DNA of 64,000 nucleotides from Escherichia coli 042. GTDB taxonomy: Bacteria; Pseudomonadota; Gammaproteobacteria; Enterobacterales; Enterobacteriaceae. The DNA lies in the NCBI RefSeq assembly GCF_000027125.1, contig NC_017626.1; one strand, written 5' to 3'. Numbering within the stretch: position 1 is the first letter of the stretch; each line of letters starts with the position of its first letter. The notes under the pieces are model-generated. The model had not been told where the DNA came from, did not search any database, and saw only the letters and a program-made list of their open reading frames with translations. Positions 3,384 through 28,514 of the stretch are shown here, in pieces. The position numbers were made by a program, and so were the translations under genes.

Positions 3384-3746
3384 GGGGCTGATTCTGGATT
3401 CGACGGGATTTGCGAAACCCAAGGTGCATGCCGAGGGGCGGTTGGCCTCGTAAAAAGCCGCAAAAAATAGTCGCAAACGACGAAAACTACGCTTTAGCAG
3501 CTTAATAACCTGCTTAGAGCCCTCTCTCCCTAGCCTCCGCTCTTAGGACGGGGATCAAGAGAGGTCAAACCCAAAAGAGATCGCGTGGAAGCCCTGCCTG
3601 GGGTTGAAGCGTTAAAACTTAATCAGGCTAGTTTGTTAGTGGCGTGTCCGTCCGCAGCTGGCAAGCGAATGTAAAGACTGACTAAGCATGTAGTACCGAG
3701 GACGTAGGAATTTCGGACGCGGGTTCAACTCCCGCCAGCTCCACCA
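3384..3746 (+). ncRNA. ssrA: tmRNA (SsrA), 363 nt
   Basis: Starts GGGGCTGATTCTGGATTCGACGGG, contains tag reading frame gcaaacgacgaaaactacgctttagcagcttaa (ANDENYALAA*), ends GGGTTCAACTCCCGCCAGCTCCACCA. Confidence 0.97.
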
Positions 3747-3813: not shown

Positions 3814-3912
3814 CATGTCTAGCAGAGTCTACTGAGAATTGCTAGAAGCTACGCATTATGGGACCCTTATATGGACCCACCGACTGGGTCCAATAATTTG
3901 AGGGTCCAATAC

Positions 3913-5142
3913 ATGGCAAGGCAGACTAAAAAACTCACAGACACTGAAATCAAAAACACCAAACCAGCAGACAAAGAGATCAATCTCTTCGATGGTGATG
4001 GGCTACTGCTACGAATCGCTCCTTCATCAAAAGGAGGGAAGAAGAACTGGTATCTCAGATATCCAGTGCCAGTAACCAAGAAGCGCACCAAGATGAGCTT
4101 GGGTACCTACCCTCACCTCTCATTAGCAAAGGCAAGAGCTTTGCGTGATGAATACCTGTCGTTACTTGCTAATGGTGTTGACCCTCAAGTCCACATCACT
4201 GAAAAAACTAATGCTCTGAAAGATGCCACGGAGCACACGCTACAAGCAGTTTCTCGAAAGTGGTTAGATGAGAAAATTAAGACTTCTGGCATCTCTCTAG
4301 ACCATGCAGAAGATATCTGGCGCAGCCTCGAAAAAAACATCTTTTCAACTCTGGGTGATGTTCCTATCAAAGAGATCCGCCCCAAAATGCTCAAGCAGCA
4401 TCTTGACCCAATTGAGCAGCGCGGTGTTCTCGAAACTCTACGTCGTATAATTTCCAGACTGAATGAAATCTTTCGCTATGCTGCCACGGAAGAGCTTATA
4501 GAGTTCAATCCTGCCGACAATCTCGCTCAGCGTTTCAGTAAACCTAAGAAGCAAAACATGCCTGCCCTTCCACCTGATGAGCTACCACGCTTCATGGTTG
4601 CTTTATCTAACGCATCTATACGGTTAGAAACCCGTATGCTGATCGAGTGGCAATTGTTGACGTGGGTAAGGCCCGGTGAAGCCGTTCGGGCAAGATGGTG
4701 TGATATTGATGAAGAGAGCAGATTTTGGAATATCCCTTCAGAATTCATGAAAATGAAACGCCCACATAAGGTTCCATTGAGTAAAGAAGCTCTCCGCATT
4801 TTAGAAAACATGCGCCCTATCAGTGGTCATAGAGAATGGGTTTTCCCCAGCATCAAAGCTCCCCTCAGTCATATGCATGAACAAACAGCTAATGCAGCCA
4901 TAATTCGTATGGGGTTTGGCGGAGAGCTTGTTGCTCATGGTATGAGATCTATTGCAAGGACAGCAGCCGAAGAATACGGTAAGTTTAGAACGGAGGTGCT
5001 TGAATCCGCTCTGGCTCATACTAAAAAAGATGAAATAATAGCCGCGTATAACCGTTCGGAATACCTAGTTGAAAGAGAAGAACTAATGAAATGGTGGGGG
5101 GATTATGTCAGCAGCAAAAAATATAAGATGATGGCAGCATAA
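3913..5142 (+). CDS. Tyrosine recombinase / integrase, P4 family
   Basis: MARQTKKLTDTEIKNTKPADKEINLFDGDGL... with C-terminal R..HGMRS..A....Y catalytic-region pattern; similar to but diverged from K-12 IntA; ATG at 3913 preferred over ORF-track start 3871. Confidence 0.88.
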   Translation: MARQTKKLTDTEIKNTKPADKEINLFDGDGLLLRIAPSSKGGKKNWYLRYPVPVTKKRTKMSLGTYPHLSLAKARALRDEYLSLLANGVDPQVHITEKTNALKDATEHTLQAVSRKWLDEKIKTSGISLDHAEDIWRSLEKNIFSTLGDVPIKEIRPKMLKQHLDPIEQRGVLETLRRIISRLNEIFRYAATEELIEFNPADNLAQRFSKPKKQNMPALPPDELPRFMVALSNASIRLETRMLIEWQLLTWVRPGEAVRARWCDIDEESRFWNIPSEFMKMKRPHKVPLSKEALRILENMRPISGHREWVFPSIKAPLSHMHEQTANAAIIRMGFGGELVAHGMRSIARTAAEEYGKFRTEVLESALAHTKKDEIIAAYNRSEYLVEREELMKWWGDYVSSKKYKMMAA

Positions 5143-9204: not shown

Positions 9205-9516
9205 TCACTCCTGCCTCCCAATCATATCCCCAAGAAACCTTTTTCCTCGTAATTTTAATCTTGCTTTATCTTCAATGCTAATATTCGATAATTGTAATAT
9301 CAGTCCTAATATTAACTCCTTATCTACCTCTTCTACTTTACAGCCCATAGCTTTAGCTACCTCAGCACCAAGGATGATCTTCAAGCGTGTCTCTGCGCTC
9401 TTGGATAGAGATTTTTCTTTACTCTTAAGGCGATTCAGACGCATTTGAGCTGATGCTATTTTTTGCTTAATGGTTTTTTCTGATCTCGGCTTTCTACCTT
9501 TATCATCCGTATTCAT
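9205..9516 (-). CDS. mobC: MobC-like mobilisation accessory protein
   Basis: 103 aa basic protein; RL..L....E.R.K.ILGA.VAK pattern resembles RSF1010 MobC; divergent from the relaxase across the oriT-like region. Confidence 0.6.
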   Translation of the reverse strand: MNTDDKGRKPRSEKTIKQKIASAQMRLNRLKSKEKSLSKSAETRLKIILGAEVAKAMGCKVEEVDKELILGLILQLSNISIEDKARLKLRGKRFLGDMIGRQE

Positions 9517-9632
9517 AATTACTTTTCCTTCTAGTTGTCAAAAACATGGAATACAATTAAAAAAGGAAAAGGTCAAACCATAGGCAGAAGGTTGAATACT
9601 TTTTATTCCAGATTAAATAACGCAGCGCGAGA

Positions 9633-9696
9633 TGATTGTTCAAAACAATCACATTGCTGGAACAGGGTTCATCCCTGTTAATGATAGGATTCATCT
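9633..9696. promoter_or_regulatory. Copy A of a roughly 64-bp repeat: palindrome TGATTGTT-CAA-AACAATCA plus hairpin ACAGGG-TTCAT-CCCTGT
   Basis: Near-identical copy at 24961-25023; palindrome alone again at 25101-25121; lies upstream of the mobC-like gene. Confidence 0.55.
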
Positions 9697-10149
9697 CAAA
9701 AAATGATGTTTTGGTTTTAAAAATATGATATTAGTAAGCTCAAAATAAAAACATGCAACACATACGAATGCAGTCACTAACATTAATTACCTGATACTCT
9801 CCGCGTTACTTATTTTATTGAATCAATGAAAACAATTTTACCTCTTGCTTTTTGACTCTGATTTCTGGTCTTAACCTGTGAATTGTGCAACACATAAAAG
9901 TATTTATAATTTTCACTATTTATTTTAAATTCTGCTTTCCCGCCTTACGGCGAGAGACTAATTTAACTACTTTTGCCCTTACGGGCGTTTTCTAAACACC
10001 AGAATCCAATATTATTATCCTACCTCAACCGTTTATCCGATTCCTACCTTTTTAATTTCACAGTCTGTAAAACTAGAGCTATTATTTAACTATAGAAAAA
10101 CATAAAACATTGTCGTTATTTTTAGCTCCTTTAGGAGATATAAAAATAA

Positions 10150-10260
10150 AGCAATGCCCACCTATACACTGCTACGCAGTGTGTGGGGTCTACCGACGGT
10201 TGCCTGCCGCAGGCTAACACCGTTTCCTTCGGAAACAAGGTCAACGTCAACACCAGAGTT
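10150..10260. other. Candidate origin of transfer (oriT), MOBQ/RSF1010-like
   Basis: Between divergent mobC-like and mobA-like genes; inverted repeats ACACTG-CTACG-CAGTGT (10157-10188) and GTTTCC-TTC-GGAAAC (10222-10236), the latter resembling the RSF1010 oriT inverted repeat. Confidence 0.5.
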
Positions 10261-10351
10261 TTTCTTACGAAAAACTAAAACCAGCTGAGTCGTATTGGAG
10301 ATTTATATTTTGGTTTGATATTTAAATTTATTTTGAGGTTGTTTTTATTAT

Positions 10352-11860
10352 ATGGCTATTTTTCATCTGGATTTTAAAATTGTGAAACGTTCTGAAGGCA
10401 GATCTTCCGTTGCGAAAGCTGCCTATCATGCTCGTACACGTATAACAGATGAAAGAACAGGTGATACCTATGATTATAGTCGCCGTACCGATTTATACGG
10501 ACATTTCATATTAGCACCAATTAATGCTCCAGAACATATCGTGAAAGACTCTACAGCATTGTGGAATGAAGTTGAAAGAGTTGAGCGCCAGAGCAATGGT
10601 CAAACATCCCGTTATTTCGATGTTGCCATACCTGCCGAGTTAAACAATGACGACAAGAAAAGACTTGTCCTTGAGTATTGTCAGAAAAATTTCGTTGATA
10701 AAGGCATGATTGCCGATATCGCTTTCCACGATCTTGATAGCGATAATCCTCATGCTCACGTTATGTTGACATTAAAAACCATAGGCCCTGAAGGTTTTGG
10801 TAAAAAAGAAAGAAGCTGGAACGACAGAAAAATGTCTGTTATATGGCGTGAATCATGGGCATCTATGGCTAACAGCTACCTTGCTGCCGCTGGCTCGTCA
10901 GAACGTATTGACCATCGTTCTCTTCAGGCCCAGCATGAAGAGGCATTAGAAAAAGCGGCGGTAGCTTTAGATAATGAAGAAAAAGCGCTATGGCTTGCTA
11001 AAGCCGCTGAAACAAACCGTCCTCCAATGAAGCGTATCCATAGTGCCAAATGGCGTAGTAAAGCAGCACAAGAGCAAAGAGCAGCAGAACAGGCTGTTCG
11101 TGATGCTGCCAAGCAGGAAGCGGTTGAAGTCTACAAGACTTTCAGCGAACTTGATCTTGAAATCGTCGTTGATGTCAGAAGCTTCACCGTGGCTGCTCTT
11201 GCTGAACCAGAAGAGATTGTATTACCAGAAACGCGCTCCGGCTCTTCTTCTCATGAAGCACAAAGTCCTGTATTGGTAGCGCCTATTCCTCATACTCATG
11301 TGCGTGGAGTTAAATCTTACCGCGATAAAGAAAAAGTGAGTAAAGTTGTCATTAATAATATATCAGAACCAAATGTTGCTGATGCTGACATAAACACTCT
11401 TTGGAAAACATCTCCATCTAAAACCAAAAATATGGCATCCAAAAGTACCGCTGAAAGTGTTAAAAGGAAACAGGCTAATCCGCGTCAGGATAATATCTTT
11501 AAACGCTTTACAACGCTTTTGATCGGTTTCTTCAAAGAGAAATTTATATGGGCTAAGAAGAAACCTGATCCTACCGAGATTGAACATGACAGGCATGTAG
11601 CAGAAAATTACGTCTTTGATGAAGTGCTGGGTGTCTATGTATCACGCGCTGACCATGAACAACGAGCCAGATTCAACGGTGATGATAAAGAGTTCTCTGG
11701 TTACAAGCCAACACCTGATGAGATTAAGCGTTTTCCAAGCCGTCTAGCTAATACAGCACAAACTGATAGAGAGCTCGACTACATGCCTTCGCTCGTGGCT
11801 GATAAGAAATCGTTAGCACCTAAATTGAAACCAAATGCTCCCTATAAAAATAGATTATAA
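10352..11860 (+). CDS. mobA: Relaxase, MobA/MobL (MOBQ) family
   Basis: N-terminus MAIFHLDFKIVKRSEGRSSVAKAAYHARTR and NPHAHVMLT (HxH) motif parallel RSF1010 MobA (MAIYHL..., NPHCHLMIS). Confidence 0.85.
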   Translation: MAIFHLDFKIVKRSEGRSSVAKAAYHARTRITDERTGDTYDYSRRTDLYGHFILAPINAPEHIVKDSTALWNEVERVERQSNGQTSRYFDVAIPAELNNDDKKRLVLEYCQKNFVDKGMIADIAFHDLDSDNPHAHVMLTLKTIGPEGFGKKERSWNDRKMSVIWRESWASMANSYLAAAGSSERIDHRSLQAQHEEALEKAAVALDNEEKALWLAKAAETNRPPMKRIHSAKWRSKAAQEQRAAEQAVRDAAKQEAVEVYKTFSELDLEIVVDVRSFTVAALAEPEEIVLPETRSGSSSHEAQSPVLVAPIPHTHVRGVKSYRDKEKVSKVVINNISEPNVADADINTLWKTSPSKTKNMASKSTAESVKRKQANPRQDNIFKRFTTLLIGFFKEKFIWAKKKPDPTEIEHDRHVAENYVFDEVLGVYVSRADHEQRARFNGDDKEFSGYKPTPDEIKRFPSRLANTAQTDRELDYMPSLVADKKSLAPKLKPNAPYKNRL

Positions 11861-14615: not shown

Positions 14616-15194
14616 TTAATGATTGATAGTGCCGTTTCTCAGAACAACCAGACGAACTGGCATATCGGCATTGTTTACTGTGGCGAAGCCACGAACTTCG
14701 AAGTTGTTGACTGTTCCAGTGACACTGACTTTCTGGCCTTTCTTGTAAGTAAGAACCGCATCATCAATACCAGAGTAGTAATCCAGCCAGACCATCCCGC
14801 CGCAGTAGCTTGTATCGGCTGTTTTAAAGAGCAGATAATAATTAGGGGCTGATTTGGGCATTCCCGTCATCATATCGCTGGCACTTCTGCCCTTCGTAAC
14901 CTCAAGAACAGTGGCATTGGTGATAGCGATCCTTTTGCCAGTCCATTTTTTTTCTGCTGCCATCGCATTTTCTTCATAGTCTTTGCAGACAGCACCAAGG
15001 CCAGTAATGGACGTCGCTGGACCACTATCCTGACCGGAAGCTGAAACCCGCAGCGCTTTATCAACGGTGCTGTTCAATGATGCCAGTGAAGAGTTAATTG
15101 CCCCATTAACGCTATTCACGCCTTCGTTGAGTTGCTGGCAGCCAGAAAGAAACACCAGAGAGATCGCCAGTGGTAAGAAGTTATGTCCTTTCAT
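14616..15194 (-). CDS. Lipoprotein (192 aa), unknown function
   Basis: Signal peptide with lipobox FLSGC (MKGHNFLPLAISLVFLSGC); first gene of the operon. Confidence 0.65.
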   Translation of the reverse strand: MKGHNFLPLAISLVFLSGCQQLNEGVNSVNGAINSSLASLNSTVDKALRVSASGQDSGPATSITGLGAVCKDYEENAMAAEKKWTGKRIAITNATVLEVTKGRSASDMMTGMPKSAPNYYLLFKTADTSYCGGMVWLDYYSGIDDAVLTYKKGQKVSVTGTVNNFEVRGFATVNNADMPVRLVVLRNGTINH

Positions 15195-15317
15195 TTATTC
15201 CTCAAGGATTTAGTCAGATTCGTATACCCCAATCCCGGCGCACTGACCTATAGATCAGGAGTTATCGTCTAATCAATTGATAGAATTGAATTATTTTTAG
15301 TGTTCGTCACATCGTTT

Positions 15318-15460
15318 AAATCGATCGATATAAAACAAATGATAGACTCAGGCTATCATAGATAATATATCGATCGATAATATCAATTAAAAAACCGATC
15401 GATAAATCACTTTCAATCGTTAATGCCTATCAATATAAATTTATCGATCGATTTTACAGA
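15318..15460. promoter_or_regulatory. Four copies of the palindrome (A)TCGATCGAT(A), each with a Dam GATC site, in the divergent promoter region
   Basis: Copies near 15321, 15370, 15396 and 15444 with spacings about 49/26/48 bp; additional inverted repeat GATAG-N7-CTATC at 15341-15359. Confidence 0.6.
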
Positions 15461-15529
15461 TCATTTTGCTTGAGTATGTTGGCACTGGCGGCTATGCTGG
15501 GCTGAGATAAAGCAGTAAAACAGAGAGGG

Positions 15530-15985
15530 ATGAGCATGGAAAACAACAACGAGCGAAGCTCTATGGAAATCTTCGAAAAAGATCAAAAAATCGCTTTTGT
15601 TGACTCGTTCAGCGATGCTGCTTTGTCTTACGAATACGAACAGGCGGGCTTCACCATTAATTTAATGCAACGCTCGGTTCTTCTCTTTAACCATAATATA
15701 AAGAAAAACGTAACTGCCAAGCAGTTGCGTAAAAATAATATAAAGAATAACGTAATGTCTTCGACATTGCGTAAAAATATGAACAGCACATTTATATATT
15801 CATATAACAACATCAGGGAAATCAACTACTCGCTGCCTGATTGCAGATCCGATGATGCCGAGAACTGTATTATGATTGATGATGTATTAAATCCAGTCTG
15901 GACGTTCAGGGTTCCATCTCACGCACATTATATTTGCGAGCAATGGGTGGAAGTATTTAATAACCATATTTTCTTTGACCCATAA
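15530..15985 (+). CDS. Hypothetical protein (151 aa)
   Basis: ORF downstream of the GATC-palindrome region; low GC. Confidence 0.5.
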   Translation: MSMENNNERSSMEIFEKDQKIAFVDSFSDAALSYEYEQAGFTINLMQRSVLLFNHNIKKNVTAKQLRKNNIKNNVMSSTLRKNMNSTFIYSYNNIREINYSLPDCRSDDAENCIMIDDVLNPVWTFRVPSHAHYICEQWVEVFNNHIFFDP

Positions 15986-17097: not shown

Positions 17098-17505
17098 ATG
17101 TCTGATGCTTTAAAGATCATCAACAATATTCGTACTCTCCGTGCTCAGGCTCGTGAACTGACACTCGAAACCTTGGAAGAGATGTTAGAAAAACTCACTA
17201 TCGTTGTAGAAGAACGTCGTGAAGAAGAGGCCTCATTTCTAAAACAGCAGGAAGAGAAACAGGCCAAGCTGGAAGCATTCCGTCAGAAGTTGTTGGAAGA
17301 TGGCATAGACCCGGCAGAGTTGCTTTCAACTGTTAGCCCATCTTCTTCCAAGACAGGAGCGAAACGCGCCCCACGTCCAGCTAAGTATAAATATGTTGAT
17401 ACCGATGGTTCGGAAAAGACGTGGACAGGTCAGGGCCGAACTCCTCGTGCTATCGCTGCTGCGCTCGAAGCCGGTAAGACACTGGAAGATTTCGAGATCA
17501 AGTAA
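17098..17505 (+). CDS. H-NS family nucleoid-associated protein, island-encoded paralogue
   Basis: 135 aa; ...[23 protein letters not shown]...[25 protein letters not shown] parallels the StpA encoded at 50350-50754 in this window. Confidence 0.85.
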
Positions 17506-18324: not shown

Positions 18325-19578
18325 TTATTCACTTGCCTGAGTCGCTCTTGTCGCATTTGTTTTTAAATTATTCAGCATTTGCTTATCAACCGGTTGCAGT
18401 TGTTGTCCTAACAGAGCCGCAAGCAAAATATTTGTGTCTTCTGTTCTTTCGATTTGAAGCATTTGTAATCTTAAATCAAGTGCCTGCATTCTTGCCTGCT
18501 CATGCGCAGTTTCTTTTTCATCAGCACTACTGATTTTTACCTGCCAAGCGTCAGCACCTGTTGTATCTGCATAGCGTGAATAGATCTCATATCTTAACAT
18601 TTCCCACTCTGAAGGATTATCCGGGAATGTTGTGCCGGGAAATAAGGTCGCATACTTGTTTTTTACGGAAGCATCTGACCAAGCAAGGTTTGCTCCCTGC
18701 GTAGAGCCCAATGTGGATCCTATTTTGGCCCCTCTGGAGTTCACTGATATATTACTTGCTTTTTTCATTGCCAGTACGGAATCAATGGCGTTTGTTCCAG
18801 CAGTGCTTCTGGAGACAAAGCTCGAAAAGGCCGATAAATATTCTCGACCTTCATTTGTGTCTTCTAATCCTTTGTTCTTCAATGGTTCAACGGGCAAGTT
18901 CCCTATAAGATTTCTTTTTGCCGCTTCAGCAACCTCAATCTGCTCAACAGAATAGGACTGATTCGAAACCTTATTAGACAATGCATCGGATTTAGATAAT
19001 GGTGGTGTAATCAGGCTTGATGCCGACTTATCTTTATCAGGATACTGACCTATAGTATTACACCCACCTCTGTTATATTTCACATCATCTTCGGAGCAAA
19101 CATTTATTGATACTCTGCCCATGATGTTTTTCTTGGCCTCATTTATTCTGGTATTTGCTTGTGTAAACATCTTAACGCTGTTTTCAGATAAAGCCTCTTT
19201 AGCTGAGCTTGTATTCGATCCTGCTGCACCACGACCACCTGCGCTCGTGACTTCTTCACAGGCGTTGGCATCAGGTATTCTGTTTAAGATATTTTTCATG
19301 CGCTGTTCTTGGATTGCCTGACTGGCATTACTGACAACCGCATTCTTCTGATTCTCACTGGCTGTTATGGTTGCTTGTGCCAGCTTGTCGTTCATTGAGA
19401 CTAATGTTTCAATTATTCCATTGCCCATAGATTGGGGTGAAGCCCCCATAAGATACGGTGTCAAAACCTCTTCTGTGACGGGCCAGACAGCGAAAGCTGT
19501 ATTTGTATATAATACAGAAAAACACAAAGCTGAAACCACTGTTATTCTCTTTACTTTAAATTTATTATTACTCATCAC
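18325..19578 (-). CDS. Secreted/periplasmic protein (417 aa), unknown function
   Basis: N-terminal signal peptide (…LYTNTAFAVWP); third gene of a three-gene minus-strand cluster. Confidence 0.6.
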   Translation of the reverse strand: MMSNNKFKVKRITVVSALCFSVLYTNTAFAVWPVTEEVLTPYLMGASPQSMGNGIIETLVSMNDKLAQATITASENQKNAVVSNASQAIQEQRMKNILNRIPDANACEEVTSAGGRGAAGSNTSSAKEALSENSVKMFTQANTRINEAKKNIMGRVSINVCSEDDVKYNRGGCNTIGQYPDKDKSASSLITPPLSKSDALSNKVSNQSYSVEQIEVAEAAKRNLIGNLPVEPLKNKGLEDTNEGREYLSAFSSFVSRSTAGTNAIDSVLAMKKASNISVNSRGAKIGSTLGSTQGANLAWSDASVKNKYATLFPGTTFPDNPSEWEMLRYEIYSRYADTTGADAWQVKISSADEKETAHEQARMQALDLRLQMLQIERTEDTNILLAALLGQQLQPVDKQMLNNLKTNATRATQASE

Positions 19579-19948
19579 AACACTCCTGTTAACTTATTAC
19601 CTTCTTTATTATTTAACCAATTAAATATGAACTGTCAATTTTAACAAAAATATTCATCTGGCATCCAACTTTAAAATTATTATAAAAGAAGCGTATAAAT
19701 CCAACGAAGTAGATTCCATGAACTAGCGTGGTGCTTTTATAGCTTTATCGATGAAGATAGATAGCATGAAATAACTTTACTTTTACGGGAGCATAAAACT
19801 TTATAAAAGTAATGTTTCCATTCAAAAAAGCCGTAGCAATATTTTATTTTAGATGCAGCCATTTCAACTTTGTTTATAAGAAAAAATATAAAGTGAGTTT
19901 CATTGCAGATAATAATCAGTTAGAAAGAGGACCGAAGCCCTCTTAATA

Positions 19949-22609
19949 TCACATTCCATCATTACCTTCTTTTGATGATGAACTACCACCGGAAGATCCA
20001 CTACCGCTCCCTTTCTCTGGAGCCTTAAAGCTTTCAATTGGTGAAGCTTGGGCCTGTAAACTTACAGGCAGCAACGGTCTGTTATGTTCACCAAACGATA
20101 CCGCTCTGTTAGCAGCCTTTTGAGCTACATTCATATAACCTGCTGCGCCTGCTGTATCACCAATAGCATCTGCTGCCTCAGCTGCATGGTAAGCCGAGTT
20201 AGCACTTTCAAGAGACTGATATTCATCCTGCTGATCAAGTGGGCCAGCATTACTCATATGAGTTCTGAATGCAGATCCCGTATCATTGGCTTTATTAGCC
20301 GCCAGTGCTTTCCCCTGTTGAGCCTGTTGCTGTTGTTGAAGCTCACGTTGCTGTTCACGGTCTTTGTTAATTTGCGCATTCCTGATCTGATTACCCATCG
20401 CATTTGAGGTATGGGAAACCTGATCCAACACGGTTTTGGTAAACATAGCACCTTCAACACCTTTTGATGCCGACTGTGCGTAACCCGACATGCTCTGACC
20501 ACCATGAACACCAAGCCACTTCATAATTTCATCAGGGATGATGTGAATCAGTGAAAGTGATTTCTTCACTACCGTGAACATCATTGCAATATAAACAGCA
20601 ATGAGAGCCAGTGACTCGATGATACCTATCCCGGCATTGGCTGACATCATGCCAAAAGCGCCGGAGAATGTTTCGTTGACGATCCCACCAAGGATAGGGA
20701 GCATCGTATAGGCTGCTATTAATCCTGTTATCATTAGCGCTGGTCGCATGGTTAACGATAAAACCAGACCATAACCAGCGCCACCACGACCCACTACGCC
20801 ATCACCATCTGGATGTAAATGTGTTATTACCCATAATGGTGCTGCGACCATTGCTTCAAGGCACAGGATCATCCAGCCTACGCAAACACCAAACCACATG
20901 ACGTAAGGCAGCATAGGAATGACGACGGCTAAAGTATCGCCAGCTATCCATAAAGGGATAACCAGTGGCATAACAATCCCCATAGCGCCAAATGCACCCG
21001 ATACCCAGCTTGCAGTCGCTGATGTCCATGCGCCAAGACCTGCCCCAACAACAGCAGAACTCCCTAATAACGTCCAGCCAGCGGCACTGATCGTATCCCC
21101 AAGCCCTTTAACAGCTAATAACGGGTTTATTGCCTGTAAATTGGCAGCGGTTGTGTCCGTCGAGAACGAGACGATTTTCCCTTGTTTTCTTCCATTGATA
21201 ACGCTGGAACTGAGAAAACCCGCCATTGCACCAGAAATGCTCTTATTGGCTTCACTTTGAAGAGAAGAAACTATTTTTCCAGCATCATCTGTTTTAGGGC
21301 CTACACCACTTTTACCACTGGTATTGGCTTCCGTTCGGTTTTGCGCATCAATACCATTCGCATATCTTGAAGCTGTCGTTGATTTCGCCATATCTTGAGC
21401 CACTTTTGCCATAATCGCGTTCAGGCTGTTATCGAATATATCTCCGTATTCCATTGTCGCTTGCCCGGCTACAGGAAGATTATGAGCTGCTCCATTAATC
21501 GCATCCTGCACACGGATCAGTTTCATACTCCATGCGCCAGCCATAAACCATCCGTCTTTCTGGACATTCTCTTTGAAATCATCCCACTGGTCGCCAGTGG
21601 AGAAAACTGTTCGTACTGCAGTATCAATAATGGATACATATGAGGCCGTTGCGCTGTTTATTCCGGTCTGAATATCAATATTATTATCGGCCACATACTG
21701 TTCAGCCAGCGTTTTCATACTATTATCAAGGCCGATAAATGCGGCATTGTGTGCCTCAATAACATCTGAAATATTCGTCTTTATATCCTGTGGCATATAA
21801 GCCATATACATGCCGCCAGCAGCAATGGTAGCCTGAGCTTTAGCCTGTTCGTCATAAGAAGCTTTGGCCTTCGGGTCTGTAAGCGTGATGCTTCCACATG
21901 CAGCCTTGGATACCAGTAAATTTTTATTCATATCATTACCGGCATTGCTGGCTCCATAACTGTATGTGTATAAATAGGCACCTTTCTCCGGTGTCATTTC
22001 AAACGCAGGCGTGACGTGCGGGAAGGGATCGGCTGCTGCTGATTTCTTCCATAATTCTCCCGCCTTTAACATACAGACGTTATTGATAAAGGCGGTTTTC
22101 GCTATGCGATCAAGCTCCTGATAAGATGCAGATGTGGTAATAACAGCCCCATCTGAGGGGTTGGATGCATAGGTATTCCAGACGGTATCTGCCAGACCGA
22201 CTCCCTGATTAATCATCCACAGCACCATAACCTGAGCGGCACAGAAACCACCTGCTGCCGGGAGTATCATTGCCGTGCCTAATGCAGTTCTTACGGGCAA
22301 CCACATGGAAGACCATTTCTTACCCAGCATTTCTCCGTCATGTGCCGTTGACATGGTTCCGGCAATCAGTGTGTAGGCAGCTAAAATGCCACCAACCAGT
22401 AAAACAGCGCTGTTAAGGATTGTCATTGTGCTGGCTAAGGGACTTTCCGCTAAATTGTCCGGGAATAAGATATCCAGAAACCACAGCTTTGATTTGTCTG
22501 TCTCCGGGACGGTAAATAAATCTGCGGCATAAGCTGACTGAGTTAATAACAGGCAAGCTAATATTACTAATAATATCGATACTTCTTTTTTCTTTATATT
22601 TATCATCAT
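19949..22609 (-). CDS. Large polytopic membrane protein (886 aa) with signal peptide and Gln-rich / Gly-Ser-rich C-terminus; possibly mating-pore related
   Basis: Signal peptide ...LLTQSAYAADL; many hydrophobic segments; C-terminal ELQQQQQAQQ and GSGSGSSGGSSSS low-complexity runs. Confidence 0.6.
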   Translation of the reverse strand: MMINIKKKEVSILLVILACLLLTQSAYAADLFTVPETDKSKLWFLDILFPDNLAESPLASTMTILNSAVLLVGGILAAYTLIAGTMSTAHDGEMLGKKWSSMWLPVRTALGTAMILPAAGGFCAAQVMVLWMINQGVGLADTVWNTYASNPSDGAVITTSASYQELDRIAKTAFINNVCMLKAGELWKKSAAADPFPHVTPAFEMTPEKGAYLYTYSYGASNAGNDMNKNLLVSKAACGSITLTDPKAKASYDEQAKAQATIAAGGMYMAYMPQDIKTNISDVIEAHNAAFIGLDNSMKTLAEQYVADNNIDIQTGINSATASYVSIIDTAVRTVFSTGDQWDDFKENVQKDGWFMAGAWSMKLIRVQDAINGAAHNLPVAGQATMEYGDIFDNSLNAIMAKVAQDMAKSTTASRYANGIDAQNRTEANTSGKSGVGPKTDDAGKIVSSLQSEANKSISGAMAGFLSSSVINGRKQGKIVSFSTDTTAANLQAINPLLAVKGLGDTISAAGWTLLGSSAVVGAGLGAWTSATASWVSGAFGAMGIVMPLVIPLWIAGDTLAVVIPMLPYVMWFGVCVGWMILCLEAMVAAPLWVITHLHPDGDGVVGRGGAGYGLVLSLTMRPALMITGLIAAYTMLPILGGIVNETFSGAFGMMSANAGIGIIESLALIAVYIAMMFTVVKKSLSLIHIIPDEIMKWLGVHGGQSMSGYAQSASKGVEGAMFTKTVLDQVSHTSNAMGNQIRNAQINKDREQQRELQQQQQAQQGKALAANKANDTGSAFRTHMSNAGPLDQQDEYQSLESANSAYHAAEAADAIGDTAGAAGYMNVAQKAANRAVSFGEHNRPLLPVSLQAQASPIESFKAPEKGSGSGSSGGSSSSKEGNDGM

Positions 22610-22625
22610 TACATTCCTTTGCCTC

Positions 22626-23150
22626 TTACTTCATTGAATTACTGATGCTGCTCCAGACATCGTTTCCGTTGACTGTTGCTCCCGATCCTGATGAAGAGCC
22701 AGTTCCTGTAGAAACACTTCCATTTGCGATATTCCCAATCACGGGCATATCAATAGAAATGCTTTCGGATATACTTCCGGTCAGTTGACTTACTTTTTCC
22801 CTCGCAATCGAACAGGCTTTACTTATTGCTGCTTCCTTCGTTTTTTTAATTATTGAATCCACAGATGGCAGGCTGATGCCGAGGTTACCCACAGGCCAAG
22901 CGTCCGTACAACCAATCGTCTCAAGTGACTGATTGATGTTATCCATGAAATTCTTCGCTACCGGCTCTAACTGAGCCGCATCCTGCTTCATTGCGTTATA
23001 TTGCGCTTGTTTTAATGATGAGCTGACATCCGGGCTACAGACTGCTGCATTAGCTGTGGTTGCTGAAATTAATATTGTTGCGGGAAGGATTATTTTGAAA
23101 ATGCGGACACAGACATTTGTTCGCCATTTATTTTTATTAAGTTTATTCAT
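22626..23150 (-). CDS. Secreted protein (174 aa), Ser/Gly-rich C-terminus
   Basis: Signal peptide ...ISATTANAAVCSP; 16 nt upstream of the 886-aa gene. Confidence 0.55.
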   Translation of the reverse strand: MNKLNKNKWRTNVCVRIFKIILPATILISATTANAAVCSPDVSSSLKQAQYNAMKQDAAQLEPVAKNFMDNINQSLETIGCTDAWPVGNLGISLPSVDSIIKKTKEAAISKACSIAREKVSQLTGSISESISIDMPVIGNIANGSVSTGTGSSSGSGATVNGNDVWSSISNSMK

Positions 23151-23470: not shown

Positions 23471-24235
23471 CTAAATATTATCCCAATCTAACGGTTCTTC
23501 TGGTGGCACAAGACTTGTGTTCTCTACAGAAGGGATTTCATTTATACTTTCACTCTTCACTAACCCTTGAGACTTTTTAGCCTGCAATCTTGCGATTAAC
23601 AAATCTATCTCATCTTGGTTATTAACTTCTTGTATAACTGCTTCAATTGACCTGTTTTTATCTTTAAGTATGCTATTGCCACCGCCATTGACGACTATGC
23701 TTTCGGGTTGTTCTTCCATTGCTTCTTTCTTTTTTATAATCTCTGATACAAAGCGAGCACGATCACCATTGAAGACAATAGCAGGGTTTATGAAATACCA
23801 GTTTTTCTCATTGGTTTTAGCAATAATACGTTTTTCGATGAGTTCTTTGATACCTCTGTAAAAGATAGATTCAGACAAAACAAAGTGATCTATCTTTTCC
23901 GCAAGAGACATTGCCTTTTTACAGCTCAGGTAGAAATGATCTTTGCCTATCGCATCCTGATATATTCGTAAAAATATGAAAAACACTTTGTATGCTGTTT
24001 TCGTGAGATCAAAATATGCTTTTATCTGAGAGGTATAGAGTTTAATGAACTCTTCTTTATCGACCTCTTGTGTATGCACGATATTGGCGAAGTAGCTTTT
24101 ACCTGTATCTTTCTTTTCGATAAGTTCTGTGCCTCTTGAAACGGTCAGATTTTTCTTTCGTGTTTCAATCTTTAGCTCTGTCTCAAAGCAAAAAGGATTT
24201 AACCCTAAATCTAAGTCAACGTCTATTTCATTCAT
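23471..24235 (-). CDS. Winged-helix DNA-binding protein, candidate replication initiator or regulator (254 aa)
   Basis: Central ...SIFYRGIKELIEKRIIAKT...YFINPAIVFNGDR block is winged-helix-like; paralogous layout to the 25693 gene; iteron-like array 170-250 bp upstream. Confidence 0.5.
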   Translation of the reverse strand: MNEIDVDLDLGLNPFCFETELKIETRKKNLTVSRGTELIEKKDTGKSYFANIVHTQEVDKEEFIKLYTSQIKAYFDLTKTAYKVFFIFLRIYQDAIGKDHFYLSCKKAMSLAEKIDHFVLSESIFYRGIKELIEKRIIAKTNEKNWYFINPAIVFNGDRARFVSEIIKKKEAMEEQPESIVVNGGGNSILKDKNRSIEAVIQEVNNQDEIDLLIARLQAKKSQGLVKSESINEIPSVENTSLVPPEEPLDWDNI

Positions 24236-24401: not shown

Positions 24402-24484
24402 ACTGACTGCAAAGTCAGGAAAGCTCACCGTGCAGTCAGGAATACTGACTATAGAGTCAGGAACACTGACTGTACGGTCAGTCG
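24402..24484. repeat. Iteron-like array: 3-4 tandem units of ACTGACT-N4/5-AGTCAGGAA at about 21-22 bp periodicity
   Basis: AGTCAGGAA at 24412, 24434 and 24455; ACTGACT at 24402, 24444 and 24465; each unit is an inverted repeat. Confidence 0.65.
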
Positions 24485-24960
24485 TATATTTTCGTTCTAA
24501 GCCTTATGCCGTAAGGGCTACAGGCCGGTTTTTTCTTAATTTAATTTTGCAAGAAGTAAGAGATAATACTTAATAGGATTAAAAGAAACCGGGCGATTTT
24601 TATAATCGCCATACAGGGTTTCAATATTTTAAATGATTAGTTTTTTTGAGTGCAATATTTATTTTTATTGCGAAGCATTTCTTTCTATTTCACTAACATC
24701 TTTTTTTTGAAAATCACCACCATCTATGAGCTGAAGCTCATGTGCTGACGCACGGCTACGCCCTAACTCTGAAATATGTATTTTTATCTTGATGAGGTGT
24801 CTTATTAATATTGATAGTAAAAAGAGGAAAGATCTTTTCCAGATCATTTCATCATAAAAAACAAAATTGATCCTATGTTTGAACATAGCATTACCGCAAT
24901 AACATATAGCATTTTCCCTTAAACGAATAGGAAAATTATATTTTCAGTAGCAGCACTTAG

Positions 24961-25121
24961 TGATTGTTCAAGACAATCACATTGCTGGAACAGGGTTCAT
25001 CCCTGTCAATGATGGATTTATCCATAAAGAATTGCGGCGATAGCCGCTATGAAATAAAGGAGAAACAATTTCATCTGTACTCATATATAAGCAGTGCTAA
25101 GTGATTGTTTAAAACAATCAC
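24961..25121. promoter_or_regulatory. Copy B of the 64-bp repeat (24961-25023) plus a third copy of the palindrome GTGATTGTTTAAAACAATCAC (25101-25121)
   Basis: Copy B is about 90 percent identical to copy A at 9633-9696, including hairpin ACAGGGTTCATCCCTGT. Confidence 0.55.
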
Positions 25122-25389
25122 TTCGCTGTAATAACATTATAGTAAAAATAAAATAGGTAGCACAAGGTGCCATTTTCATAAGGCACAAATGAGTTTCATA
25201 GCAAAACGTTTCTGGATAGATCAATTAAGAAATATTTCAATACAATTCATCCTTCATTGCTGAAAACCTCCAACGCCATTCATAAAACAGCAGGTGCCAT
25301 TCAACAGGCACACATTCCCTTTTACTATATTAAACTTATTACTATATTACAGCTGTTATTTCTCATATAAAACAACATATTACAGAAAA

Positions 25390-25480
25390 AAGGTTATAGG
25401 TTCCTATAACTATGGTTATCGATATCTATAACTCGGATTATAGTTTACTATAACCATAATTAGCAAAAACTATAACTATA
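25390..25480. repeat. Cluster of about six CTATAAC / GTTATAG motifs in direct and inverted orientation
   Basis: aggttataggttcctataactatggttatcgatatctataactcggattatagtttactataaccataattagcaaaaactataactatagtt; about 200-300 bp upstream of the 25693 gene. Confidence 0.55.
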
Positions 25481-25692: not shown

Positions 25693-26391
25693 ATGACACA
25701 AATAGATTTTCAATCTCTTAGCAGTTTATCCCCCTTTCAGCTAACACAGTATATTGATGATCATCTTTTCACTAATGAACAGAAAGTGCAGATATTCGAA
25801 CATTATCACAGCACACATAAAGACACTACCAATATCTATTCGAGAAAAGAAAACATTAAATCTATTAAAAAAGATGTTGATTATGTCCATATGTTCACAA
25901 AAAACTTCCAGCAACTCGCAGAACTTGATATTTCCAAGAATGAGTTGAAGGTTATCGCAAGGATTTTAAACATCATGGAGTTTGGAAACTGCTTTCATAT
26001 ATCGCAAGCAAAGCTATGCCGCGACTTAGATATTAAAAAATCAAATATGTCTCTTGTCTTTAAAAAGCTCAAAAAGAAAGGGATCATTATTGATAAAGAT
26101 GGAGATCTCTTTATGAACTCCAACATATTTCTTAAGGGACAAGCGCATTCTATCAATGCCAAACAACGCCCTAATGTTAAAAAGGCACAGGGATTTAACG
26201 CTAATAATGAACCAGTATTTGATAATGTTTATACATTTAATCAAACAAATGATTCTGACAATCAACCTACAGAAGGAATGACTACATCTGAGCCACCAAA
26301 AACATCTGATAGCTGTTCTAACAAAGAAACAGATCCAGCACTGACGCTGCAGTATCCTAAAACAGAAGAGCCAGCTTATGATGATGTTTAA
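25693..26391 (+). CDS. Winged-helix DNA-binding protein, candidate Rep-like or regulator (232 aa)
   Basis: ...ISQAKLCRDLDIKKSNMSLVFKKLKKKGIIIDKDGDLFMNSNIFLKG winged-helix-like block; repeat array upstream. Confidence 0.5.
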   Translation: MTQIDFQSLSSLSPFQLTQYIDDHLFTNEQKVQIFEHYHSTHKDTTNIYSRKENIKSIKKDVDYVHMFTKNFQQLAELDISKNELKVIARILNIMEFGNCFHISQAKLCRDLDIKKSNMSLVFKKLKKKGIIIDKDGDLFMNSNIFLKGQAHSINAKQRPNVKKAQGFNANNEPVFDNVYTFNQTNDSDNQPTEGMTTSEPPKTSDSCSNKETDPALTLQYPKTEEPAYDDV

Positions 26392-26422: not shown

Positions 26423-26719
26423 CTACTGCCAGTCAATGAGATCCTCTGGTGATATCCTATCCTTCTCCATCAATTTGAGGATCTTTTTCATTTTTAACTT
26501 ACGTGCCTTTTTCTCACCAATCTCCTGATAGTATTCTTCCCGCCGTTCCGCTACTACCTTGCGGAACTTCTTCAAGAGTTTGTTCAATGTCTTTATATCA
26601 GTGGTAGCCGCTTCAGCTTGGATTTTTCTATACATATACATAACGTGGAATTCATCAATCATATTAAACCTCTTAGTTTTATCATTCATGTGATTTCCCT
26701 CTTTCGAGGGAATACTCAT
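26423..26719 (-). CDS. Hypothetical small protein (98 aa)
   Basis: Last gene in a co-oriented run of small genes. Confidence 0.45.
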   Translation of the reverse strand: MSIPSKEGNHMNDKTKRFNMIDEFHVMYMYRKIQAEAATTDIKTLNKLLKKFRKVVAERREEYYQEIGEKKARKLKMKKILKLMEKDRISPEDLIDWQ

Positions 26720-28280: not shown

Positions 28281-28514
28281 TTATGCTACTTTATTACGTG
28301 ATAAAGTAATCTTTTCATCAATCCACTTATCTATATCACTCTCTAAGAATGCTATTGCTCTTTCACCAAGTTTTATTGGCGATGGGAATTCATTACGACT
28401 AATCAAACGATAAATCCACGCTTTACATAAACCAGTACGATTTAATACTTCTGGTAAACGAATAAGTCTTTTACTGTTTGATACTACATTAGTATTCATC
28501 TTTATCTCCTTCAC
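28281..28514 (-). CDS. alpA: AlpA-family phage regulatory protein (small HTH regulator/excisionase-like)
   Basis: 77 aa; KRLIRLPEVLNRTGLCKAWIYRLISRNEFPSPIKLGERAIAFLESDIDKWI fits the AlpA pattern. Confidence 0.8.
   Translation of the reverse strand: MKEIKMNTNVVSNSKRLIRLPEVLNRTGLCKAWIYRLISRNEFPSPIKLGERAIAFLESDIDKWIDEKITLSRNKVA

What the first reader, a model, noticed from the sequence alone, without database searches (positions are those of the whole stretch)
9633..9696. Shared operator-like palindrome links the mobilisation and replication-like modules
The palindrome TGATTGTT-N3-AACAATCA occurs three times (9633-9651, 24961-24979, 25101-25121). At two sites it sits in a roughly 64-bp conserved unit that also contains hairpin ACAGGG-TTCAT-CCCTGT (9633-9696 and 24961-25023, about 90 percent identical), 15 kb apart. 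One copy lies upstream of the mobC-like gene, the others in the noncoding hub between the two winged-helix genes. This suggests one island-encoded regulator coordinating transfer and maintenance functions.
Basis: seen in the sequence. Interest (0 to 1): 0.6.

Follow-up and report, generated by a model that had tools for sequence, protein, structure and literature searches.

The report
Shared palindromic control site in mobilisable island
A 21-base palindrome (GTGATTG-N7-CAATCAC) that stays unchanged across bacterial genera marks the replication-control region, and in some lineages the transfer-control region, of a family of mobilisable pathogenicity islands. It is most likely a docking site for one still unidentified DNA-binding protein that switches both functions together.

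Summary
TGATTGTT-N3-AACAATCA occurs three times (9633-9651, 24961-24979, 25102-25120; 0.03 expected by chance), and an ~83-nt unit is duplicated 15 kb apart.

The window holds an E. coli island of the ROD21-like (EARL) family inserted at ssrA. Across about 35 related island loci the site has an extended form, GCAGC-N6-(G)TGATTG-N7-CAATCA(C)-N3/4-GCTG. The half-sites never vary and the centre is free.

It is found only in these islands and in two places:
- A pair 138-142 bp apart upstream of a RepL-type replication gene, in every island examined that retains this region.
- One copy in the traD-mobQ intergenic region, in one mobilisation lineage plus one further island (L004).

It is not a MITE. 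It is not the Rep iteron, because each rep gene has its own 21-22-bp iteron array and related small plasmids lack the palindrome. It is not the relaxase nick site.

The best reading is an operator for a dimeric protein supplied in trans that does not co-evolve with the island. That protein would gate a plasmid-type replicon and, where the unit was copied, the traD operon. The two neighbouring winged-helix (Rep) proteins are unlikely binders. The A/mob units also carry a hairpin with compensatory substitutions, so a single-strand (ssDNA or RNA) role remains a serious rival. The binder is unidentified.

The parts
9622..9704 (+). mob-type unit: GCAGC, 6 nt, palindrome TGATTGTT-CAA-AACAATCA (9633-9651), CATT-GCTG, hairpin ACAGGG/CCCTGT (9662-9678), TTAATGAT, small dyad GGAT-TC-ATC (9687-9696), A-run
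   Evidence: Conserved in Brenneria, Serratia, Cedecea and E. coli islands.
24950..25032 (+). hub A unit: GCAGC, 6 nt, palindrome 24961-24979, GCTG, hairpin 24990-25006, invariant AATGATGGATTTATCCA (dyad TGGAT-TT-ATCCA 25013-25024; DnaA-box-like TTATCCATA)
   Evidence: 17 nt invariant in the 8 hub loci of alignment A2; a few variants appear among the further loci.
25034..25047 (-). hairpin GCGGC-TATC-GCCGC followed on the minus strand by a T-rich run (terminator-like), between sites A and B
   Evidence: The stem covaries (GCGGC/GCCGC against GCGTC/GACGC).
25091..25128 (+). hub B site: GCAGT, 6 nt, palindrome 25102-25120, CTTC-GCTG. It has no following hairpin, and sequence conservation between islands ends exactly here.
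   Evidence: D3. The A-B spacing is 138-142 bp in the loci first compared; one IMG/VR locus (L150) has 130 bp.
24935..24940 (-). -10-like hexamer (TATAAT here, TATAGT in most relatives) 19-20 nt left of palindrome A. This places the palindrome centre near -42 of a leftward promoter (inferred).
   Evidence: Read. Present in 7 of 8 distinct hub A loci. Not called by the simple promoter scan.
24402..24481 (.). iteron array, 4 x 21 bp (CTGAC-N6-GTCAG), beside the p254 RepL-type gene
   Evidence: D2.
25394..25477 (.). iteron array, 4 x 22 bp (TTATAG-N4-CTATAA), upstream of the p232 RepL-type gene
   Evidence: D1.
23471..24235 (-). RepL-type replication initiator, 'p254' type
   Evidence: Homologues are the rep gene of 2-4 kb plasmids annotated RepL. 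The same type follows the A-B module in L004, L055 and L103.
25693..26391 (+). RepL-type replication initiator, 'p232' type (homologue of ROD21 SEN1990)
   Evidence: Weak HTH_36 and DnaD_N Pfam hits. Homologues found in 2.3-3.1 kb plasmids. Literature.
9205..9516 (-). TraD-family relaxosome accessory gene (Ti-plasmid type)
   Evidence: Pfam PF06412, E 1e-12. Annotated TraD in RefSeq.
10352..11860 (+). MobQ-family relaxase
   Evidence: NCBIfam NF041496, 259.7 bits against a cut-off of 200.
9939..9990 (+). probable oriT core: inverted repeat CCGCC-TTAC-GGCG and nick-like GCCCTTACGGG (9975-9985). This is separate from the palindrome, about 280 bp to its right.
   Evidence: Invariant block in alignment A1. 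The likeness to the MOBQ nick core is from my own memory and was not verified.

Best explanation
The palindrome is an operator: a double-stranded binding site for a dimeric, sequence-specific DNA-binding protein that recognises GTGATTG / CAATCAC half-sites 7 bp apart. In this island family, two such operators about 140 bp apart (A and B) form a conserved control cassette next to the plasmid-type replication module. Site B abuts the Rep-specific promoter region. Site A sits about 42 bp upstream of a conserved leftward promoter. Binding gates these promoters, most probably by repression, so the replicon stays silent while the island is integrated. In one mobilisation lineage the A unit was copied into the traD-mobQ intergenic region, which puts the traD operon under the same signal. 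The protein is supplied in trans and is not one of the adjacent Rep proteins. Because the site is invariant while every island protein drifts, I infer a conserved host factor, or another slowly evolving factor, rather than a co-evolving island repressor. Shown: existence, extended consensus, distribution, and separateness from iterons and the nick site. Inferred: protein binding, the promoters, the sign of regulation and the identity of the binder.
For: - The three sites against 0.03 expected by chance.
- The extended motif is shared by 21 aligned sites, with TGATTG, ACAATCA and GCAG at maximal information content and the centre nearly free. A further 35 sites in 20 IMG/VR loci fit the same pattern.
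- The six outer stem pairs never vary, and the inner positions change without compensation, so the sequence rather than pairing is what is conserved.
- Chance occurrences of the bare palindrome in unrelated phyla lack the GCAGC/GCTG flanks. Every site with the flanks lies in an Enterobacterales island.
- A position-weight scan of four loci, each holding a whole island and its chromosomal flanks, finds no other site.
- The sites occur only upstream of rep and in the traD-mobQ spacer.
- Conservation of the hub cassette stops exactly at site B, after which the sequence is specific to the Rep type.
- A -10-like TATAGT lies at a fixed 19-20 nt from site A in 7 of 8 loci.
- The L004 mob copy carries the same left flank, ACTATAT.
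- The Rep proteins have their own iterons.
- ROD21 stays at one copy per chromosome, and deleting its Rep homologue changes nothing, which fits a silent replicon.
- A working precedent exists: Ti-plasmid tra boxes sit at both the traA/traC (oriT) and the traI/repABC promoters.
Against: - No binding protein is identified.
- No promoter is experimentally mapped, and the simple sigma-70 scan does not call the promoters I infer.
- The A and mob units contain an adjacent hairpin (IR2) whose stem is kept through compensatory changes while the loop length varies from 2 to 5 nt. That points to a single-stranded structure and is unexplained by an operator.
- One lineage has a 4-nt centre in site A. This changes the half-site spacing by 1 bp.
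- The flanks GCAGC and GCTG are not symmetric about the dyad (6 nt against 3-4 nt).
- A host regulon could not be tested, because the E. coli core genome was not scanned.
Confidence: 0.5

Rival explanations
1. The unit works as a single-stranded nucleic-acid structure: a run of hairpins in ssDNA or in an RNA. In ssDNA it could be a priming or single-strand initiation signal near the replication origins and at the trailing end of the transferred strand. In RNA it could be a leader or small RNA, and the palindromic copies could even pair with one another.
For: - As single-stranded DNA the hub A unit folds into four consecutive hairpins (-25.4 kcal/mol, z -7.3). The mob unit gives z -3.8 and site B gives z -5.7.
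- The IR2 stem is kept in five forms (ACAGGG/CCCTGT, ACAGGC/GCCTGT, ACAGTGC/GCACTGT, ACAGGA/TCCTGT, GGAG/CTCC), with loops of 2-5 nt.
- The hairpin between A and B covaries (GCGGC/GCCGC against GCGTC/GACGC) and is followed by a T-run on the minus strand.
- All copies are co-oriented.
- The hub has 7 terminator-like hairpins against 0.4 expected.
Against: - The palindrome arms themselves show no covariation. They are invariant, and the inner pairs break without compensation.
- Site B has no accompanying hairpins.
- Pairing between copies would allow concerted change between lineages, and none is seen.
- No Rfam family matches.
- The covariation statistics are modest: 2 pairs and 3 cells, and 42 of 500 shuffles reach the pair count.
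Confidence: 0.22
2. The palindrome is bound by the adjacent RepL-like winged-helix proteins, as an autoregulatory operator or origin element.
For: - The sites lie upstream of rep genes in every island.
- Iteron-type initiators commonly autorepress through inverted repeats at their own promoter (established knowledge, for example RepE and pSC101 RepA).
Against: - The identical palindrome precedes two Rep types with no BLASTP similarity and Rep proteins only 31-42% identical.
- Four small plasmids with 35-63% identical Rep proteins lack it.
- Each rep gene has a different iteron array (CTGAC-N6-GTCAG and TTATAG-N4-CTATAA) with no likeness to the palindrome.
- Deleting SEN1990 in ROD21 altered no island transcript and no copy number.
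Confidence: 0.08
3. It is a relaxosome site: an oriT inverted repeat, or a binding site for the TraD-like accessory protein or the MobQ relaxase. The hub copies would then be secondary oriT-like sites.
For: - The mob copy lies in the traD-mobQ divergent spacer.
- An 8-bp inverted repeat with a 3-nt loop resembles the repeat next to the R1162 nick site (own knowledge).
- Ti-plasmid TraA, TraC and TraD autorepress the divergent promoters at oriT.
Against: - The best-conserved blocks of the spacer lie elsewhere (9939-9990 with a nick-like core, and 10150-10300).
- The mob copy is absent from EPEC IE3, L133 and L150, although traD and a mobQ-homologous sequence are present (mobQ is a pseudogene in EPEC IE3). 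No substitute palindrome is seen there.
- The hub copies persist unchanged where TraD is only 41-56% identical, and in an island that has lost traD and mobQ (L130).
Confidence: 0.08
4. It is a selfish or relic repeat (a MITE-like element or a recent duplication) with no function.
For: - An 83-nt unit is duplicated within one island.
Against: - It is never found outside these islands. The median is 2 places per genome, always in the same two contexts.
- It has no target-site duplications or terminal repeats.
- It is kept across at least seven genera while the flanking DNA becomes unalignable.
Confidence: 0.02

Closest known systems
Ti-plasmid tra boxes (TraR regulon of Agrobacterium)
   Same: One 18-bp dyad operator is placed both between the divergent traA and traC-traD operons at oriT and in the traI/repABC intergenic region, so transfer and replication respond to one dimeric regulator. 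Class II tra boxes sit about 45 bp upstream of the start site (PMC3907764). The island's transfer genes are of the Ti type: the relaxase N-terminal domain is TraA-like and there is a TraD protein.
   Different: The sequence is different and the dyad is 21 bp. I recognised no LuxR-type gene or other candidate regulator in the island, though not every island ORF was domain-searched. The mob copy is optional. The extra hairpin and invariant block have no counterpart at tra boxes. The binder and the sign of regulation are unknown.
IncP-1 (RK2/RP4) KorA and KorB global operators
   Same: Short palindromic operators are repeated at replication (trfA), maintenance and transfer promoters. They coordinate vertical and horizontal functions of one element (own knowledge).
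   Different: The Kor proteins are encoded by the plasmid and their operators are many. Here there are only 2-4 sites and no cognate gene is identified.
AcaCD boxes in Salmonella genomic island 1
   Same: A mobilisable island places binding sites for one trans-acting regulator in front of several of its genes, and its plasmid-like replication depends on the helper plasmid (abstract of PMC7826253). That the boxes precede the excision, replication and mobilisation genes specifically is my own knowledge. The regulator is not encoded by the island.
   Different: AcaCD comes from an IncA/C helper plasmid that carries the same boxes. A search with all 32 loop variants found the perfect 21-bp site in no conjugative plasmid of PLSDB, only in records that carry the island.
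Inverted-repeat operators of iteron-plasmid initiators (RepE of F, RepA of pSC101)
   Same: A palindrome lies just upstream of a rep gene, next to an iteron array.
   Different: Those operators share a half-site with the iterons and co-vary with the initiator. Here the palindrome is unrelated to either iteron array and is independent of the Rep type.

Membership tests
ROD21-like (EARL) excisable islands | P4-type tyrosine integrase next to a tRNA or tmRNA gene at one end, and an AlpA-like directionality factor at the other end | tested here: met
   tmRNA at 3384-3746, integrase at 3871-5142, AlpA-like gene at 28281-28514 next to a DUF6387 gene. Family description in PMC6035254.
ROD21-like (EARL) excisable islands | MobA/MobL (MOBQ) relaxase plus a TraD homologue, and H-NS homologues (full-length and/or truncated) | tested here: met
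   MobQ at 259.7 bits. TraD PF06412. H-NS at 17098-17505 and truncated H-NS at 26423-26719. A SEN1982-family lipoprotein is annotated.
Transcription-factor operator (dimer-binding dyad) | Dyad symmetry with conserved half-sites and an unconstrained centre | tested here: met
   Information content is maximal at TGATTG and ACAATCA and near zero at the loop. Six outer pairs are invariant.
Transcription-factor operator (dimer-binding dyad) | Fixed half-site spacing | tested here: inconclusive
   The centre is N3 at nearly all sites, but site A of L004 and L130 has N4.
Transcription-factor operator (dimer-binding dyad) | Overlap with, or fixed distance to, a promoter | tested here: inconclusive
   A conserved TATAGT lies 19-20 nt from site A in 7 of 8 loci. 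In p254-type hubs, site B overlaps TTGAAA-17-TATAAA (read). Neither is called by the promoter scan in the window, and there are no TSS data.
Transcription-factor operator (dimer-binding dyad) | Specific binding by a protein | not testable with these tools
   Needs EMSA, footprinting or DNA pull-down.
Rep iteron or Rep autoregulatory operator | Sequence related to the iterons and co-varying with the initiator | tested here: not met
   The iterons are CTGAC-N6-GTCAG and TTATAG-N4-CTATAA. The palindrome is identical with both Rep types and absent from related small plasmids.
MOBQ oriT (inverted repeat plus nick site) | Present wherever the cognate relaxase is present, next to the nick core | tested here: not met
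   Absent from the traD-mobQ spacer of L002, L133 and L150. The invariant nick-like core lies about 280 bp away.
MITE / IS-derived repeat | Many copies at unrelated loci, with terminal inverted repeats and target duplications | tested here: not met
   777 places in 452 genomes, a median of 2 per genome, all in island intergenic DNA. Apart from records that carry the island, plasmid and phage collections give only weak partial matches (E 2-7), most within coding sequence.
Known RNA family (Rfam 15) | Match to a covariance model | tested here: not met
   Only tmRNA and tRNA matched in 3300-40000 at E up to 1.
Ti-type TraR / tra-box regulon | LuxR-type activator encoded by the element | tested here: inconclusive
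   No such gene was recognised among the island ORFs examined or in the RefSeq annotation of the near-identical island. Several island ORFs were never domain-searched, and no search targeted LuxR-type domains.

The most novel reading that the evidence does not exclude
The island does not encode the regulator of its own plasmid-like replicon. Instead it has captured the binding site of a highly conserved host (or otherwise external) protein, so that host physiology licenses replication and, in some lineages, mobilisation of a pathogenicity island through one invariant 21-bp site. A stranger alternative is that the co-oriented palindromic copies act as RNAs that pair with one another, as in the RNA-based immunity of satellite phage P4 (own knowledge). 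Either reading would define a new control logic for the family that includes ROD21 of Salmonella, IE3 of EPEC and ICEKp258.2 of Klebsiella ST258.
Probability: 0.2. Interest if true: 0.75.

Novelty: new member of a known kind. Interest (0 to 1): 0.5.

Why it matters
ROD21-like islands carry virulence and defence cargo in Salmonella Enteritidis, EPEC, uropathogenic E. coli and Klebsiella ST258. Their excision has been studied, but nothing is known about how their relaxase genes and their puzzling 'RepL' genes are controlled. The published deletion of the Rep homologue gave no phenotype.

A single, invariant, easily mutated site at both modules gives a direct experimental handle:
- It is a bait for identifying the regulator.
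- It is a way to unlock, or to prove silent, the island's plasmid-type replicon.
- It offers a test of whether replication and mobilisation are co-induced.

The work also maps, for the first time as far as I could find, the iteron origins and the probable oriT core of this family.

Tried and rejected
- MITE/IS idea: rejected by the distribution.
- Rep-binding site: rejected by the iterons, independence from Rep type and the small plasmids.
- Coding explanation: a minus-strand ORF across the unit (M-D/N-K/P-S/I-I-I-N-R-D-E-P-C-S-S...) appears in several copies. It loses its start codon, is cut by stops or changes sequence in L002, L003 and L045. It is 22 aa in hub A against 45 aa in mob, so it is not a gene.
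- Conserved ORF in the hub cassette: none. The conserved blocks fall in different frames.
- Rfam: no family matched.
- XRE-type HTH gene beside the hub in L003, L004 and L130: absent from the window and most islands, so it is not the general binder.
- DUF6387: no homologue found between or beside AlpA and the integrase in L134 and L174, where hub sites persist.
- AlpA-like directionality factor: it binds the att regions in ROD21, but no TGATTG or CAATCA half-site lies near the island ends here. Unlikely, though not excluded.
- Helper-plasmid operator: a 672-nt query holding all 32 loop variants found the perfect site in PLSDB only in records that carry the island. Degenerate sites would be missed.
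- Full-text search for the sequence found only unrelated primer lists. The four papers on this island family that I read do not mention it.
- Known E. coli regulators (CRP, FNR, Fur, ArcA, IHF, LexA, DnaA, MatP, SlmA, PdhR-type GntR): none fits in both sequence and spacing. These are memory-based comparisons, not tests.
- Verifying the MOBQ nick-core likeness in the literature failed.

Full report
**Observation.**
- TGATTGTT-N3-AACAATCA occurs at 9633-9651, 24961-24979 (one mismatch) and 25102-25120. Dinucleotide-preserving shuffles give 0.03 matches on average and never three.
- The repeat finder independently reports an 83-nt direct repeat, 9622-9704 against 24950-25032, at 81%. BLASTN gives 93.7% over the central 63 nt.
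- The hairpin ACAGGG-N5-CCCTGT follows the palindrome in the first two copies only.
The third coordinate needs a one-base correction, and the neighbouring gene is a TraD-family gene, not mobC.

**Context.**
- The window is E. coli. A tmRNA gene (3384-3746) is followed by a P4-type integrase and about 26 kb of low-GC DNA. This DNA is 99.9% identical to an island in a blood isolate (annotation).
- The gene content is a MobQ relaxase, a TraD protein, a SEN1982-family lipoprotein, full-length and truncated H-NS, and an AlpA-like factor next to a DUF6387 gene. This places it in the ROD21-like (EARL) family described in PMC6035254.
- Copy 1 lies in the 835-bp spacer between the divergent traD-like (9205-9516, minus) and mobQ (10352-11860, plus) genes.
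- Copies 2 and 3 lie in a 1.46-kb noncoding hub between two divergent genes of 254 and 232 aa.

**Anatomy.** I compared the window with four other E. coli islands (tRNA-Asn, tRNA-Phe, tRNA-Leu and EPEC IE3), with islands in Serratia, Brenneria, Cedecea, Mangrovibacter, Pluralibacter and Citrobacter, and with 20 further island loci from IMG/VR.
- The extended site is GCAGC-N6-(G)TGATTG-N7-CAATCA(C)-N3/4-GCTG.
- Information content is maximal at TGATTG, ACAATCA and GCAG and close to zero in the 3-nt centre.
- The six outer pairs of the dyad never vary. The two inner ones change without compensation.
- There are three classes of site:
  - 'Hub A' is the dyad, then a hairpin (IR2), then AATGATGGATTTATCCA, which is invariant in the 8 hub loci of alignment A2 (a few variants appear among the further loci).
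  - 'Hub B' is the dyad alone, 138-142 bp downstream of A in the loci first compared (130 bp in one IMG/VR locus, L150).
  - 'Mob' is a paralogue of the A unit.
- The IR2 stem is kept in five forms (ACAGGG/CCCTGT, ACAGGC/GCCTGT, ACAGTGC/GCACTGT, ACAGGA/TCCTGT, GGAG/CTCC), with loops of 2-5 nt.
- Between A and B a second hairpin covaries (GCGGC/GCCGC against GCGTC/GACGC). On the minus strand it is followed by a T-run.

**Distribution.**
- The 83-nt unit is found in 452 of 5426 complete E. coli genomes. There are 777 places, a median of two per genome, all chromosomal and none under an annotated feature in the rows listed.
- Apart from three plasmid-collection records that appear to carry the island or a fragment of it, one of them a 4.8-Mb chromosome-sized entry, the plasmid and phage collections give only weak partial matches.
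None of those has the GCAGC/GCTG flanks. Every match with the flanks is an Enterobacterales island.
- A position-weight scan finds no further site in four loci that each hold a whole island and its chromosomal flanks.

**The hub is a pair of plasmid replicons.**
- Both flanking proteins have homologues that are the rep gene, often annotated RepL, of 2.2-4.2 kb cryptic enterobacterial plasmids.
- Each has its own iteron array: 4 x 21 bp CTGAC-N6-GTCAG at 24402-24481 beside p254, and 4 x 22 bp TTATAG-N4-CTATAA at 25394-25477 upstream of p232.
- The A-B cassette lies between them. In islands with a single rep gene the same cassette precedes either type (p232 type in L002, L003, L045, L078, L093; p254 type in L004, L055, L103). 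Sequence conservation ends exactly at the GCTG of site B.
- Four small plasmids with 35-63% identical Rep proteins have no such palindrome.
- The ROD21 homologue SEN1990 matches the EPEC protein in residue numbering (K118-L121 is KGIL). Its deletion changed neither island transcription nor copy number, and ROD21 sits at one copy per chromosome.
- Together these results make the Rep proteins unlikely binders. They also suggest that the replicon is normally silent.

**The mob region.**
- An alignment of six traD-mobQ spacers shows that the most conserved blocks are not the palindrome. They are a hairpin plus GCCCTTACGGG at 9939-9990 and a block at 10150-10300 next to mobQ.
- From memory, the first resembles the nick core of MOBQ plasmids. 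I could not verify this in a paper.
- The palindrome unit is missing from the spacer of EPEC IE3, L133 and L150, and no substitute palindrome is seen there.
- Hub sites are present in every island examined that retains this region, including one that has lost traD and mobQ (L130).
- The mob copy of L004 carries the left flank of the hub A unit (ACTATAT), as if the unit had been copied together with its neighbouring -10 element.
- The hub is therefore the primary location. The link to mobilisation is a lineage-specific recruitment.

**Promoters (inferred).**
- On the minus strand a TATAGT (TATAAT in the window, 24935-24940) lies 19-20 nt from palindrome A in 7 of 8 distinct loci, while the bases between vary. 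The dyad centre would then be near -42, the position of class II activators, and would cover the -35 region.
- In p254-type hubs site B overlaps a good TTGAAA-17-TATAAA promoter pointing at rep. In p232-type hubs a conserved TAACAT lies at the same distance (read).
- The simple promoter scan calls none of these in the window, and I have no TSS data.

**Who binds.**
- Island proteins diverge widely between islands that keep the identical site. Identities to the window proteins are TraD 41-93%, MobQ 57-81%, AlpA 43-72%, Rep 30-99% and integrase 25-83%.
- A co-evolving repressor-operator pair would be expected to drift, and this site does not.
- The XRE-type gene beside some hubs is absent from most islands. 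No DUF6387 homologue was found beside AlpA in two lineages. AlpA binds the att regions in ROD21, and those regions carry no half-site here.
- No conjugative plasmid in PLSDB carries the perfect site.
- By elimination I favour a conserved factor from outside the island, most simply a host protein. This is inference, and I could not scan a whole host chromosome for a regulon.

**Mechanism I commit to (confidence 0.5).**
- The dyad is an operator for a dimeric protein supplied in trans.
- The A-B pair gates the promoters of the replication module, more likely by repression, because an integrated island must keep a plasmid origin silent.
- Where the A unit was copied upstream of the traD operon, mobilisation genes answer to the same signal.

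**Rivals.**
- The main rival (0.22) is that the unit works as folded single-stranded DNA or RNA. As ssDNA, hub A forms four consecutive hairpins (z -7.3), two of them with compensatory changes.
- This rival explains IR2, which the operator model does not. It does not explain the sequence invariance of the dyad or the bare B site. The two readings may both hold for different parts of the unit.
- A Rep operator (0.08), a relaxosome site (0.08) and a functionless repeat (0.02) are less likely, for the reasons given above.

**Comparison with known systems.**
- It works most like the Ti-plasmid tra boxes. There one dyad serves the traA/traC-traD promoters at oriT and the repABC promoters. This is notable because the island's relaxase domain and TraD are of the Ti type.
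- It also resembles the KorA/KorB operators of IncP-1 plasmids (own knowledge) and the AcaCD boxes of SGI1.
- It is a member of none of these. The sequence differs, I recognised no LuxR-type or other cognate regulator gene in the island, and no helper plasmid shares the site.
- I found no description of the element in the four papers on this island family that I read, or by full-text sequence search.
- I rate it a new member of a known kind: a shared operator that coordinates the replication and transfer modules of a mobile element.

**Limits.**
- There is no binding assay, no TSS data and no host-genome scan.
- The promoter assignments are by eye.
- The covariation support for IR2 is modest in the formal count, though it is reinforced by further variants.

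Noticed in passing
window 24402-24481 and 25394-25477: Two separate iteron arrays: 4 x 21 bp CTGAC-N6-GTCAG beside the 254-aa RepL-like gene, and 4 x 22 bp TTATAG-N4-CTATAA upstream of the 232-aa RepL-like gene. The island carries two complete-looking iteron replicons back to back, whereas most relatives carry one.
   Followed up: partly
window 9939-9990 and 10150-10300: The most conserved noncoding blocks of the traD-mobQ spacer. The first is a hairpin CCGCC-TTAC-GGCG followed by an invariant TTGCCCTTACGGGC, nick-core-like from memory. The second is a 150-bp block with dyads CACACTGC-TAC-GCAGTGTG, GCCTGC-CG-CAGGC and AGTTTTTC-TTAC-GAAAAACT, one of which shows compensatory change in Cedecea. 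Probably the oriT and a structured mobQ leader.
   Followed up: partly
window 24508-24518 (minus strand): A second near-match to the nick-like core (GCCCTTACGGC) lies inside the hub, close to the p254 iterons. 0.5 such matches are expected by chance, so it may mean nothing.
   Followed up: no
window 24725-24775: A conserved block of three small hairpins (ATGAGCT..AGCTCAT, GTGC-TGAC-GCAC, GGC-TAC-GCC), kept in seven of the eight hub loci aligned about 200 bp left of site A. On the minus strand it is followed by T-rich sequence. With the TATAGT near site A it could bound a roughly 200-nt leftward RNA with a variable middle.
   Followed up: no
window 25165-25190 and 25292-25312: A hairpin GGTGCC-N9-GGCAC(A) is repeated 125 bp apart between site B and the p232 iterons. 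It is also present in L003, L045, L078 and several IMG/VR loci. Both copies are called terminator-like on the minus strand.
   Followed up: no
window 9752-9762 and 9884-9894: The motif TGCAACACAT occurs twice in the traD-mobQ spacer and is conserved in all six aligned islands.
   Followed up: no
window 18325-23150: This island variant carries IncI-type type IV secretion parts (TraW family, DotA/TraY and a 174-aa neighbour). Other family members carry IncI-type thin-pilus genes (pilV, pilin) instead. This hints that the helper has an I-type transfer system.
   Followed up: no
window 15311-15461: A dense set of overlapping inverted repeats built on ATCGATCGAT, in the noncoding stretch between the 14616-15194 and 15530-15985 genes. 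Direct repeats TAAnnATAATATAAAGAAnAACGTAA lie at 15688-15755.
   Followed up: no
L002 19500-20170 (EPEC E2348/69 IE3); also L137, L166: These islands have three hub sites because the A unit and its left flank are duplicated about 490 bp upstream. The extra copy has a degraded invariant block (GGATTTTTCAATTAATGA).
   Followed up: partly
window 30281-38070: Beyond the island's DUF6387 end the window differs from its closest relative. It has a 1567-aa minus-strand ORF (30281-34984, GC about 0.5) and a tRNA-Met at 37995-38070. I could not find a direct repeat of the ssrA 3' end of 12 nt or longer, so the right boundary of the island is not fixed.
   Followed up: no
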